DNA from: Cystobasidiomycetes sp. EMM_F5
Taxonomy: Eukaryota
DNA: 64,000 nucleotides
NCBI GenBank assembly: GCA_051047955.1
Contig: JBPGPT010000033.1
Span: forward strand, 62,001-126,000
Direction of reading: 5' to 3'
In this document: positions 3,394 through 64,000 of the stretch, in pieces
Numbering within the stretch: position 1 is the first letter of the stretch
Layout: every line of letters starts with the position of its first letter
The notes under the pieces: model-generated
Told to the model about the DNA's origin: nothing
Database searches by the model: none
What the model saw: the letters and a program-made list of their open reading frames with translations, nothing else
Translations under genes and position numbers: made by a program

Positions 3394-3746
3394 AAAAAGA
3401 GTCTGCCCAGCCGGCGGAACCACTGAGCTCTTTAATGCGAAAGTGTGAAAGCGCAACACTCCGTGGAAACCCGTACATGCGATCCCCGATAGAAAAGCTA
3501 GAGTTGCTCTCACTGCTCCCTCTGCTCTGTTGCCAGCATGAGGGGCGCATCGATCCCCCGTAAAGGAGACGTGCGGGCGCGCAGGAAATTTAACAGCCGA
3601 GTCCGCGATTCTTGCGAAGGGGGAGCTTCGAACTGACAACCCGCTCAAGGGACATGTGTTGGATGGATTAGAAGTGCAAGCAACGGCGGCGTTGATCCGC
3701 TTGGAAAAAGCAACTGGACATTCCCGACTTGAAGCCATTACAGCCC
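3394..3746 (-). ncRNA. Signal recognition particle RNA (SRP/7SL RNA)
   Basis: The 5' end GGGCUGUAAUGGCUU matches the fungal Alu motif of yeast SCR1 and S. pombe srp7. 5' and 3' ends pair (UGUCCAGUUG 3720-3711 with CGGCUGGGCA 3413-3404; GCGGA/UCCGC). Helix-8-like hairpin CCCU-CAUG-CUG-GCAA-CAG-AGCA-GAGGG (3545-3518) has a GNRA loop. Internal B-box GTTCGAAGC (3633-3625), T5 Pol III terminator (3398-3394), upstream TATA. Confidence 0.9.
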
Positions 3747-3770
3747 ATCCAAGGCGAATTTTACACAACA

Positions 3771-3778
3771 TATATATA
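3771..3778 (-). promoter_or_regulatory. TATA element about 25-32 nt upstream of the SRP RNA (Pol III promoter)
   Basis: TATATATA at the expected distance upstream of the predicted 5' end at 3746. Confidence 0.6.
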
Positions 3779-4403
3779 ATCTGCACATAATTTCCAGAAA
3801 ATGACATCCACAGACTGACTCCTCTCGGACGGGACGCTCGCACTGGCCAAGTATGACGCATGTGGTCAGATTCCTCTAGACCACAGGCTTCCGCCATTCT
3901 AAGCTTTGGCTATAAACGTCGCGCTATGGTCCCTGCAAGTGACCGTGCGCCCATTCCTCATTGGGCCTTGTCTGATATGGATGTCGGCGCATGGCAGGCT
4001 TCCGGCACTCGCTTCTACAACTTGAAGCGCCTCAAAGCTAGTAGTCATCTTGAATACCTTCGCTTTGACATACATCTACGCCGATGGTCTTCTCACGCAT
4101 GAACCGTTTGCAGAATTGAAGCGAGAGATAGATCAATACAAGTTCCCATGTCCACAGCTTGTGAGCAGCACAATCTTCAGTGATGATGTACACTCTCTTG
4201 AGACAGAATTTAGAAAAGGTTTGGAAACGCACGAGCGCTTTTGGGGTATGCACATCGACCCGCATGGGCCTCGCTAAAGGTCCTAGCTGTGGTTCAAACG
4301 CGTCGACATAGCGCACGGAACGGTTCAGAGTATATTTCCGCTCGCAGTTTCACATCACGTTCGCTGTTTATCAGCCTATGCATTAGCTAATTCAGCACAC
4401 ATC

Positions 4404-16091: not shown

Positions 16092-16332
16092 GGTTGCGGA
16101 GCCAATTGAACGTAAATCAAGCTTGTTTACGTGTTTGGTCAACAAGGGGGCAACTTAGCAGAGGGGCAAACACGAGACAGGAACTTGGAAGTACGAAAGC
16201 ACCAGATTAAAACACGGTGTCTTTGCTTTATATTACGTTGTCAGAAAGTCTACAACGACTCGAAGCAGCCTCCTCTAAGCGCTTGTGCGCGTAATTTCCC
16301 GACTGAGAGGCAATAACGTATTGCAATCAAGC

Positions 16333-18022
<1,690 letters not shown>

Positions 18023-61226: not shown

Positions 61227-62730
61227 TCAAGTCTGTGCTGCCGGGGTGGGCAGCTTCTTCGCTAGGGTACCATTAGCTTCTCCAGACGGTGCTGGCCGTT
61301 TCTTTCTGTTGACCGCCCCTGCGCCCACAGGTGCTTTGCTCAACGACGCTCCACCACCACCCATGAGCCTCCTCAGCGAAGCCATCGGGAACTTTGTGCG
61401 ACACGTTAGGCAGACCGGCAGCGGCGAGCAGAAGACTTAGAGACGACGAAGTACATCAGCATTCGTGCTGATATGACGCGAGGTGCAAGATGCAGTCTAA
61501 ACCTACTTGAGAGGCACACGGAGCAGACGTAGCCAATGTCCACGATTTTCTTGTGACAGAAGCACGCAGCTCGAAGATCTATCTGTTCTTGCGTCGGGAG
61601 ATGCAGATGTCTGCGGACACTCAGACCTGGTAGGAATGCCATGAGAAGGTACTGCAGTAATCCCGCACGGCGTTCTAGTCGATAGTACGAGGCTTTGGTT
61701 AGATGCGAAGCCTGCTGTAGGAAGACTGTATCGTCGCCGAACACTTTGCAAACGTCAATGGGTATGGACTGTTGTGCCACTATTAGCGGCTTGTGTACCA
61801 GGACGATACAGAGTGGACGCGACTTGCCGCTTTCTGTGCCGCGAAAATACAATTCATTATGGAAATGTATTGGGTTGAAGTTTCGCCTGACACGCTCAGA
61901 ACCAATATACGCGATTTGAGCGGAGGCAGGGAATCATCTTTCGACATGCGATTGATGTCTGCGGTGAAGATCTAGTGTTAATATGGACACCCCAGTGGAT
62001 GTGTATGACTGCTTACGGCAGAGGGTCTTTGCCAAAGCGCTCGAAACCGCCACTTGTACTATCGAAGCATTGTCAGACGCCATAGTCCTTCGAAGACCAT
62101 CCGCACTGACCGCTGTGCACATTCTCTGTGCTATCCTGCTCGACCGCCGGATATAATTCTCGAAGACTGTGCACTACCGCTTCATCCAGTATTCGGAAAG
62201 TCTGGTACGAGTTCGAGTCTGCGGCAGCTGCGCCTTCGAGCTGGAGATCTGGAGAAGGTTGGACAGCACCGCTAGACTTGTGCGTAGCTTTTCGCTGCGC
62301 ATGTATAGACGAGTATAGCAGTGTACTGGCACAATGTACATTCCCGTCAATCGCGCGGGCTGAAAGCTTGCAGCATCCCAGCTCACCTCTGTCCTAGACC
62401 AGCAGCGTAGATGACCAGATGATTCTCAAACCTCAAAGCCATGTGTGCGTTTGCCAGGACGAGCATACTTCGGACTGCATCTTCAAAGCTGAGCGAGTCG
62501 ACGATTTCCTTGCCATCTTGACCGCTCGAGCGAGTCTCGATGCCGCACGCATGCCATGCTAGCGGATTGACGTCGAGCTGATAGTGTCAGCGGAGAGAAT
62601 CGTTTGCAAGTCAGCTAGAATAATGGACCGGATCCAGCAGGCCTACTATGATGGCCAATAAATCTGCAGGCGCTGCAGTCTCGCCTTCCACGGCTGATAG
62701 AGCAGCTGCAGGACCAGCTGTGGACGCCAT
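61227..62730 (-). CDS. TFB4: TFIIH subunit Tfb4 (p34)
   Basis: [65 protein letters not shown]..CLTC. Confidence 0.95.
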
Positions 62731-62934
62731 AGTGCGGGAGTCATGAGGACATTTCGGTCGGTTGTGGTGGGGCAAGAAGCAAATACACAGGTCATAACGA
62801 GAAATAGTGGTGCGGCACACAGTCATTTCAAAATAGCATCACAATTTACCCTACAATCTGCCCTTCAAGCTCTGTCGCCCGTCGGCTGAGCCTGGCTGAG
62901 AGGCTGGAGACTTGGGCGTGCTTCCACCTCTTTC

Positions 62935-64000
62935 CTAAGCTCCAGTAATAAAGTTGGCGCCCTGCCATACGAAGTGCGATTAGTCACCTTTCTACGCTGG
63001 CACTATGCCATAGATGCCATACCTTGGTGATGTTGCCCTTGAGCTCGCCAACGCATGCCGATAGCAGCTTTTTCTCGTAGTCAGTCAAGCTGCCGAGCGA
63101 GTGGACATCCTTGACACCGTCTGGGCCAAGCTCGACTGGCAGCGAGAAGAAGTCGATGCCCTCTGCTTCTTTGCCAACAAGACCTTCGAGTGCCTTTGGT
63201 GCGTTCGGCGACGCCGAGAGGTGTATGTCTACGAAAGTGGACAGATAAGTACTGGTGAGCCTACTGCCCATCGTAGCATAGTATGTACTCACATGTATCC
63301 TCGATCAAGCCAGACTTGCCGTTGAATTTGGCTTGTAGCAGCGCCTCAGCGAAGCGGAAACCGGCGTAAGCCATCGACAGCTACAAGCGCCAATTGATGT
63401 AAGTCCCAGTACTAAGCCAGTGCAGAACAGCGAGCATGAGCTCACAGTAGCGGAACCTGCGCCGTCCTTGGCCTTGACGACTTCATCACCTCCGAATTGG
63501 ATCCGGTTGACAAGCTTCTCCAGCTCCTCTTGGTTGTCCAGCAGCTTGCTGTCTACGCTTGGCTTGGCCTGCGAGAGGAGCGGGACGATGGTGGTACCAG
63601 AGTGACCTCCGACAACCGGCACAGCATACTTTGGTGCCTCCGTTGGGATGCCGAGAGAAGCGGTTACAAATGTGCTTGCACGGACAATGTCGAGCGTTGT
63701 GACTCCGAAGAGTCTGGGTTGACGTCAGTCAGCGGGACTTTGTAACACCCGTACATGGCCATTTTGCCTACTTTTTAGGGTCAAAGACGTTAGCCTTCTT
63801 CAAGACTTCCGCAACAATGGGCACGGTCGAGTTGACTGGGTTGGAGATGACGCAAATGAAAGCCTTCGGGCAGTTCTCCGCAATGGCAGTAGCGAGATCG
63901 CGAACAATGCCGGCATTGATCTGCCGGTAAGCGACGTAACTCAGCAGTGTCGACGTTTAGAGTAGCGTTGGTATACCTTGAATAGATCATCACGAGTCAT
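62935..64000 (-). CDS. MDH: NAD-dependent malate dehydrogenase (3' part; 5' end lies outside the window)
   Basis: [68 protein letters not shown]. Confidence 0.97.

What the first reader, a model, noticed from the sequence alone, without database searches (positions are those of the whole stretch)
62851..62964. Cryptic peroxisomal-targeting extension behind the MDH stop; the stop TAG may double as an alternative 3' splice site
Seen: after the last intron the CDS ends [11 protein letters not shown] (62937-62935). The same frame stays open for 27 more codons, ERGGSTPKSPASQPGSADGRQSLKGRL-TAG: a flexible linker ending in a PTS1-like tripeptide with an upstream Lys. The last intron is phase 0, and splicing to the AG of the stop codon (27 nt downstream of the normal acceptor) would join ...GNITK to this extension in frame. 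Readthrough would also reach it. Knowledge: fungi make peroxisomal isoforms of MDH, GAPDH and PGK by alternative splicing or readthrough. GRL is a non-canonical PTS1. Inference: dual cytosolic/peroxisomal MDH from one gene.
Basis: partly seen in the sequence, partly recalled or inferred. Interest (0 to 1): 0.7.

Follow-up and report, generated by a model that had tools for sequence, protein, structure and literature searches.

The report
Possible hidden peroxisome tag, fungal MDH
A fungal malate dehydrogenase gene has a short in-frame stretch behind its stop codon that could add a peroxisome address if ribosomes occasionally read through the stop; the stretch is real but its use is unproven, and the proposed splicing route is unlikely.

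Summary
The sequence is as described: a phase-0 last intron, [11 protein letters not shown], then 27 open in-frame codons ending KGRL-TAG. The gene is the only non-mitochondrial MDH found in a Cystobasidiomycete-like genome. 94 of 108 homologues end directly in a PTS1-like tripeptide; this gene and 6 of its 7 closest full-length relatives do not. The tail is GC-rich and coding-like up to its stop (0 of 35 control 3' flanks match), but GC explains much of the score. The proposed splice is disfavoured: it would delete a Gly and Phe invariant in 56 of 56 MDHs, the acceptor is weak, and the nearest relative appears to lack the intron. Readthrough keeps the fold, but UAG-G has no known leaky motif. 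Conservation and RNA evidence were not obtained. Odds: readthrough 0.40, chance 0.40, splice 0.12. Side finding: two related lineages carry a PTS2-like motif on an N-terminal extension instead. Cryptic peroxisomal MDH is known (Yarrowia, mammals), and this scan noted a spliced MDH PTS1 in another genome.

The parts
63772..63920 (-). MDH exon (end of the NAD-binding domain); the 5' exons lie beyond 64000 (L001 2802-3404)
   Evidence: Pfam Ldh_1_N E 3.7e-10
63446..63713 (-). MDH exon (catalytic domain)
   Evidence: Pfam Ldh_1_C E 4.9e-17
63293..63380 (-). MDH exon
   Evidence: frame continuity and homologue sequences
63023..63228 (-). penultimate MDH exon, ending in the first part of the C-terminal helix
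   Evidence: Pfam Ldh_1_C E 5.4e-8; alignment A1
62962..63022 (-). last intron, phase 0, 61 nt, branch CTAAT 62983-62979, CAG acceptor
   Evidence: sequence; a break at the same place in genomic ORFs of relatives P0127, P0136, P0137, P0251, P0253-P0255
62938..62961 (-). terminal coding exon GANFITGA, with the invariant Gly and Phe of the last helix
62953..62959 (-). best branch-point-like heptamer for the distal AGs (weak, 18th percentile), inside coding sequence
62940..62941 (-). intervening AG (GAG) between the normal acceptor and the stop TAG
62854..62934 (-). 27-codon in-frame extension, 62% GC, rich in S/G/P, ending K-G-R-L (non-canonical PTS1-like)
62851..62853 (-). second TAG closing the extension; GC drops to 42% behind it
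62728..62730 (-). probable ATG of the downstream TFB4 gene, 120 nt behind the extension; the tail may overlap its promoter (start inferred)
   Evidence: Pfam Tfb4 E 9.2e-37 on the exon at 61409-61933, no hit on the first-exon frame

Best explanation
The gene makes a cytosolic MDH ending FITGA. A small fraction of ribosomes misread the UAG, translate the 27-codon flexible tail and expose KGRL, a weak PTS1 that Pex5 could import, giving a minor peroxisomal MDH for the malate/oxaloacetate NAD+ shuttle of beta-oxidation. This would replace the direct C-terminal PTS1 that this lineage lost. Shown: the anatomy, the loss of the direct PTS1, only two MDH loci found, and no contiguous PTS2. Inferred: readthrough, Pex5 binding and function. 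It is level with the chance explanation; all routes to a functional tail together come to about 0.55.
For: Two MDH loci found in the genome, the other with a mitochondrial-type N-terminus. 94 of 108 homologues with an intact end carry a direct PTS1-like tripeptide; this gene and 6 of the 7 closest full-length relatives do not. No PTS2 in any upstream frame, and only chance-level hits among 9,990 splice models (78), although a thiolase of this genome carries a PTS2. PTS1-like ending by chance: 0.6% per frame, 0.14% with the upstream Lys/Arg; 0 of 35 control flanks. In-frame coding score 0.047 (coding mean 0.066); 34 of 1,176 noncoding windows and 0 of 35 flanks reach it. Readthrough keeps the invariant Gly and Phe and needs no intron. 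The stop is TAG after GCT in the window and in L008, and by inference in the Cyphobasidiales MAG. GRL is listed as an experimentally validated plant PTS1 (PMC3427985 Table A1), and a Gly-led fungal signal, GNL, is reported functional (PMC12316961).
Against: The context is UAG-G, not the UGA-CU motif, and UAG lowered readthrough in U. maydis (PMC4207609). No hairpin beyond shuffles (z -0.4 to -0.6). About 10% of composition shuffles, and 6 of 33 noncoding windows with GC of 60% or more, reach the same coding score. Gly at -3 is outside the PTS1 consensus quoted in PMC12316961. No conservation shown: 0 of 3 more distant Cystobasidiomycete-like cDNA contigs (L009-L011) have an in-frame PTS1 tail, even L011 with TGA-CTG; L008 ends after 13 open codons. 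No homologue of the tail among 1.84 billion representatives (2 unrelated repeat proteins). This genome's PGK, GAPDH, GPD and TPI show no readthrough PTS1. Two related lineages appear to use a PTS2 instead.
Confidence: 0.4

Rival explanations
1. Chance. The 81 nt are ordinary 3' UTR overlapping the GC-rich promoter of TFB4, and KGRL is accidental. The enzyme is cytosolic, or enters peroxisomes without its own signal (piggyback, or an unrecognised Pex7-dependent route as in Pichia MdhB).
For: Open runs of 27 or more codons are common (13 of 35). GC explains much of the coding score. The probable TFB4 start is only 120 nt away. No readthrough motif, structure or good acceptor. Accidental PTS1-like ends occur nearby: a 55-codon ATG-led frame upstream of this gene ends in SKL. 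Three more distant relatives show no signal at either end of their cDNA contigs. Pichia MdhB is imported with no recognisable PTS (PMC8124512).
Against: The motif (0.14-0.6% per frame), the GC level (33 of 1,176 noncoding windows) and the GC drop at the second stop coincide in a gene family where a hidden signal is expected beforehand.
Confidence: 0.4
2. One reading: the last intron is sometimes spliced to the AG of the stop codon, replacing the 8-residue terminal exon by the 27-residue tail.
For: In frame, TAG-type acceptor, 27 nt downstream. A branch-like heptamer lies 19 nt upstream (18th percentile). The normal acceptor is itself weak (12th percentile). TAG after GCT is kept in two relatives that have the intron. 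Precedent for last-intron alternative acceptors in Yarrowia MDH2 (PMC3372373).
Against: It deletes G-x-x-F-I, the last turns of helix 314-339 in the model of close homologue P0004. Gly and Phe are invariant in 56 of 56 and are also present in the three solved human and plant MDH alignments shown. In Yarrowia the two acceptors are 4 nt apart and change only the last residues. Acceptor score at the 1st percentile of 67 introns; branch-to-AG distance of 40 nt or more in 1 of 38. The nearest relative (85% over 52 columns) reads through this position without a break on contigs up to 29.9 kb.
Confidence: 0.12
3. Splicing to an in-frame acceptor further inside the tail (CAG at 62896 or 62872), giving a shorter PTS1-bearing end.
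For: 62896 has a median-strength acceptor (46th percentile); 62872 has a fair branch point (27th percentile).
Against: Same loss of the invariant Gly and Phe. Neither site has both a good acceptor and a good branch point. No consensus donor lies between the Phe codon and the stop that could keep the helix.
Confidence: 0.04

Closest known systems
Yarrowia lipolytica MDH2 (YALI0E14190g), alternative 3' splice sites (PMC3372373)
   Same: Genome with two MDH genes; a small last intron near the stop of the non-mitochondrial gene; one gene proposed to give cytosolic and peroxisomal forms.
   Different: There the acceptors are 4 nt apart, cause a frameshift in the last residues and are shown by cDNA, RNA-seq and microscopy. 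Here they are 27 nt apart, in frame, would remove invariant residues, and are unshown.
Readthrough-derived PTS1 of animal MDH1 and LDHB and of U. maydis PGK, TPI, Art1, Rpe1 (PMC4207609)
   Same: In-frame extension behind the stop of a cytosolic redox enzyme, ending in a PTS1-like tripeptide.
   Different: Those use UGA-CU and conserved tails. Here the context is UAG-G, the tripeptide is non-canonical, conservation is not shown, and the enzyme is of the fungal/mitochondrial-type MDH family.
Aspergillus nidulans GAPDH readthrough and the mosaic of routes across fungi (Freitag 2012, seen only through PMC4973966, PMC3798809, PMC12316961)
   Same: Lineages swap between splicing, readthrough and direct signals for the same enzyme.
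   Different: A different enzyme. That its stop is not of the UGA-CU type is recalled and could not be checked.
PTS2 isoforms of fungal 6-phosphogluconate dehydrogenase (PMC3798809, PMC9549241) and plant PTS2 peroxisomal MDH (PMC7710942)
   Same: Matches the side finding in relatives: an N-terminally extended isoform with a PTS2 nonapeptide.
   Different: The window's gene has no such motif. A fungal MDH with a consensus PTS2 did not turn up in the listings or in the passages read.

Membership tests
Non-mitochondrial fungal NAD-malate dehydrogenase | Ldh_1_N and Ldh_1_C domains, closest hits are MDHs, no mitochondrial presequence | tested here: met
   the paralogue on contig C232 has the presequence-like N-terminus (read by eye)
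Cryptic-PTS1 dual-targeted enzymes | main ORF lacks a PTS1; a hidden reading ends in a PTS1-type tripeptide | tested here: inconclusive
   main end TGA; hidden end GRL is validated in plants but outside the consensus quoted; no PTS1 predictor available
Cryptic-PTS1 dual-targeted enzymes | hidden signal conserved in orthologues | tested here: inconclusive
   0 of 3 distant cDNA contigs show it; L008 is cut after 13 codons; DNA of the closest relatives not obtained
Cryptic-PTS1 dual-targeted enzymes | Pex5-dependent peroxisomal localisation of the extended form | not testable with these tools
   needs microscopy
UGA-CU readthrough class (PMC4207609) | UGA stop followed by CU | tested here: not met
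   context is TAG-G
Structure-stimulated readthrough | unusually stable RNA structure 3' of the stop | tested here: not met
   z from -0.62 to +0.11 over four window spans
Alternative 3' splice-site class (Yarrowia MDH2) | second acceptor that preserves the enzyme core | tested here: not met
   removes invariant Gly and Phe
Alternative 3' splice-site class (Yarrowia MDH2) | both junctions present in RNA | tested here: inconclusive
   no laid read or contig covers 62851-63022
PTS2 isoform by N-terminal extension | in-frame upstream (R/K)(L/V/I)x5(H/Q)(L/A) | tested here: not met
   absent in this gene; present in L008 and P0123, near-match in P0003

The most novel reading that the evidence does not exclude
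After losing the direct C-terminal PTS1, Cystobasidiomycete MDH regained peroxisomal access several times by different routes within one class: an upstream in-frame ATG with a PTS2 (L008/P0123 lineage, probably also the Cyphobasidiales MAG), a direct AKM end (P0007), and, in this genome, motif-free UAG-G readthrough into a 27-residue GRL tail. That would be a fungal MDH readthrough isoform outside the UGA-CU rule and a PTS1-to-PTS2 switch for a fungal MDH.
Probability: 0.3. Interest if true: 0.55.

Novelty: new member of a known kind. Interest (0 to 1): 0.33.

Why it matters
Peroxisomes need an NAD+ shuttle, and MDH is a main part of it. If the tail is used, it adds a readthrough case that UGA-CU screens would miss. 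With the PTS2-bearing relatives it would show that selection keeps the peroxisomal location while the signal type and route turn over inside one fungal class. If it is not used, it is a caution that PTS1-like 3' frames arise by chance. The phenomenon itself is well described, so the surprise is modest.

Tried and rejected
RNA: no RNA holder listed. Four runs laid at 80% likeness gave only other organisms' conserved pieces and one 172-nt contig nearly identical to the penultimate exon; nothing covers the last intron or the tail. An apparent S-P-x7-D-G-R match between the tail and the residues that follow the same splice donor in the P0003 gene model is not significant (shuffle p 0.39-0.58; other parts of that spacer score as high) and was rejected. 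The last 8 bases of L008 equal those around the tail's stop, but out of frame with the MDH stop, and were treated as chance. No readthrough hairpin. Tail search with TAG read as Gln: 2 unrelated repeat proteins. No relatives in viral contigs. The metagenome scan gave 13 loci of 456 pattern hits; 4 were close relatives (L008-L011) and 9 were distant and not used. Cluster look-ups of 22 proteins showed no member with a C-terminal extension. A PTS2 by 5' splicing in this gene: 78 of 9,990 in-frame models hit a loose pattern; the 25 best shown all need three introns with at least one non-consensus site; rejected. The tree of the penultimate exon groups the 16 close rows apart from 5 outgroups but does not resolve their order. 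Pfam did not name the last exon of the upstream gene. Paper searches gave no report on Cystobasidiomycete MDH targeting; supplements were not opened, and Freitag 2012 was seen only through reviews. Look-ups of earlier findings were empty.

Full report
Observation. The minus strand reads as described. The last intron is 63022-62962, phase 0, with branch CTAAT 18 nt before a CAG. The terminal exon encodes GANFITGA, then TAG (62937-62935), then 27 open codons ending KGRL and a second TAG (62853-62851). One detail was missed: another AG (GAG, 62941-62940) lies between the normal acceptor and the stop.

The gene. Three exons match Ldh_1_N or Ldh_1_C. The closest named homologue is from a Cyphobasidiales MAG, 87% over one exon, an order of Cystobasidiomycetes; the taxon of the window is inferred from this. 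The 18.3 Mb assembly shows two MDH loci. The other has a presequence-like N-terminus (read by eye); this one starts directly with the Rossmann motif. No separate peroxisomal MDH gene was found, though the assembly may be incomplete.

Why a hidden signal is expected. Of the 117 proteins P0004-P0120, 108 have an intact C-terminal end, and 94 of these finish in [SACP][KRHN][LMI]. The closest full-length relatives mostly do not: FITGA, FITA, FIHA, VAAK, SKA, SKA, and one AKM (6 of 7 without). The lineage therefore seems to have lost the direct PTS1 from its main isoform. Both import routes appear to be in use in this genome: TPI ends SKI, GAPDH ends ASL, the upstream gene ends SRL, and 1 of 5 thiolase 5' regions examined has an ATG-proximal PTS2, RLQSVVDHL.

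Is the tail more than chance? Length alone is not: 13 of 35 putative 3' flanks are open for 27 or more codons. These flanks are heuristic calls from 600 kb of the genome plus the window, not annotated stops. The ending is rarer: 0.6% of 13,333 short frames end in [SACGP][KRH][LM], 0.14% with an upstream basic residue, and 0 of 35 flanks do. The tail is 62% GC, dropping to 42% behind its stop. A Markov model scores it 0.047 in frame (coding mean 0.066, noncoding mean -0.108); 34 of 1,176 noncoding windows and 0 of 35 flanks reach that. Against this, about 10% of composition shuffles and 6 of 33 noncoding windows with GC of 60% or more reach it too, frame +2 scores 0.029, and the probable TFB4 start is 120 nt downstream, so promoter GC is an alternative. 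GRL is a validated plant PTS1 (PMC3427985, Table A1 seen) and ends two mammalian AGTs (PMC12960970, passages). Gly at -3 is outside the consensus quoted in PMC12316961, which also reports a functional fungal GNL (passages).

The splice route. Using the stop's AG would replace GANFITGA by the tail. The Gly and Phe of that exon are invariant in all 56 sequences I aligned, chosen by hand from the hits. The motif I-x-x-G-x-x-F/W/Y is found in 167 of 173 full-length hits; of the 6 exceptions, 3 have Val for Ile and 3 look like annotation or intron-retention variants. In a confident model of the homologue P0004 (mean pLDDT 93.6) these residues lie in the last helix, 314-339, and the solved human and plant MDH alignments shown keep them. 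That the loss would damage the enzyme is inference. Against 67 introns inferred from coding continuity, the TAG acceptor is at the 1st percentile, the normal one at the 12th, and the best nearby branch point at the 18th; using the true branch point would need 45 nt and two skipped AGs, and 1 of 38 introns has a distance of 40 nt or more. The nearest relative (85% over 52 columns) has the same FITGA end but reads through the intron position without a break, on contigs up to 29.9 kb; I infer that it has no intron there. In Yarrowia MDH2 the two acceptors are 4 nt apart and change only the last residues (PMC3372373, abstract and sections 3.2 and 3.5 read). In favour of splicing: the stop is TAG after GCT also in L008 and, inferred from a shifted-frame reading of P0136, in the MAG.

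The readthrough route. It keeps the helix and needs no intron. But the context is UAG-G, whereas efficient fungal readthrough uses UGA-CU and UAG reduced it (PMC4207609, two sections and passages read). No structure beyond shuffles was found. PGK, GAPDH, GPD and TPI of this genome show no readthrough PTS1. Reviews describe a mosaic of routes across fungi, with readthrough for A. nidulans GAPDH (PMC4973966, PMC3798809, PMC9549241; passages). That this case lacks the UGA-CU motif is my recall and was not confirmed.

Conservation and RNA. Not established. The metagenome scan gave 4 close cDNA-like contigs among 13 loci. L009, L010 and L011 have no in-frame PTS1 tail; L008 is open for 13 codons and then ends. 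A seeming match to the P0003 model failed a shuffle test. No homologue of the tail was found. No RNA covers the site.

Side finding. L008 has an in-frame ATG 20 codons upstream of the main ATG, encoding RITQIQNHL. P0123, of the same 90% cluster and so not independent, has RIAQLQDHL. The MAG model has RARQIALHL. The first two meet the basic PTS2 consensus quoted in PMC8124512 (passages); the third has Ala at position 2; none meets the stricter consensus. My loose pattern hits 185 of 16,103 open 30-residue windows by chance. Two lineages thus probably make peroxisomal MDH through a PTS2 extension. The window's gene has none. Searches listed no paper on this in Cystobasidiomycetes; the library lacks most subscription journals. 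PMC7710942 (passages) confirms PTS2 MDH in plants; PMC3764329 (passages) added nothing.

Verdict. A functional cryptic PTS1 has about 0.55 by all routes: readthrough 0.40, splice at the stop 0.12, a later acceptor 0.04. Chance has 0.40. These odds are my judgement, not a computed result. If real, it works like the known cryptic-PTS1 isoforms but fails the defining tests of both the UGA-CU class and the Yarrowia splice class. The scan had already noted a tandem-acceptor MDH PTS1 and a GPD1 hidden exon in other genomes; these are unchecked notes and did not change the reading. Interest 0.33.

Noticed in passing
L008:233-292; P0123 residues 11-19; P0003 residues 8-16: In-frame upstream ATG or N-terminal extension with a PTS2 or PTS2-like nonapeptide on the MDH of two related lineages; probably a PTS2 peroxisomal isoform by alternative start.
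   Followed up: partly
L001:3404-3278 (5' end of this gene, beyond window 64000): Two candidate first mini-exons, each an ATG followed by a phase-2 GTGAGC donor (3399 and 3364), share one acceptor (3278); the true start is ambiguous and both could be used.
   Followed up: partly
L001, about 3742-4300, minus strand: The upstream gene, which looks like a Lon protease C-terminus (recognised by eye; Pfam gave no hit on the last exon), ends in SRL: probably peroxisomal.
   Followed up: partly
L001:3682 to about 3515, minus strand: A 55-codon ATG-led frame between the upstream gene and MDH ends in SKL; probably chance or a uORF.
   Followed up: no
window about 16330-16500 (GAPDH, L081); TPI (L089): GAPDH ends directly in ASL and TPI in SKI, weak direct PTS1-like ends; PGK and GPD show no hidden PTS1 in frame.
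   Followed up: partly
L082 (contig C173): A second, divergent GAPDH-family gene with a long S/P-rich C-terminal tail.
   Followed up: no
L011, at the MDH stop: Stop in a TGA-CTG readthrough-type context, but the 5-codon extension ends AIS, with no PTS1.
   Followed up: partly
P0003 (CAD6581578.1): The public gene model skips the true terminal exon and fuses MDH to a PF19050 gene; likely a mis-annotation.
   Followed up: partly
window 63022-62962 and relatives: The last intron is patchy in the close clade: present in this gene and P0127, P0136, P0137, P0251, P0253-P0255; apparently absent in P0129, P0132, P0252, P0257.
   Followed up: partly
window 62730-61227 and 61082 downward, minus strand: Downstream genes are TFB4 (Pfam hit) and an Hsp70-like protein with a signal peptide, probably LHS1 (by eye); intergenic gaps are very short.
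   Followed up: no
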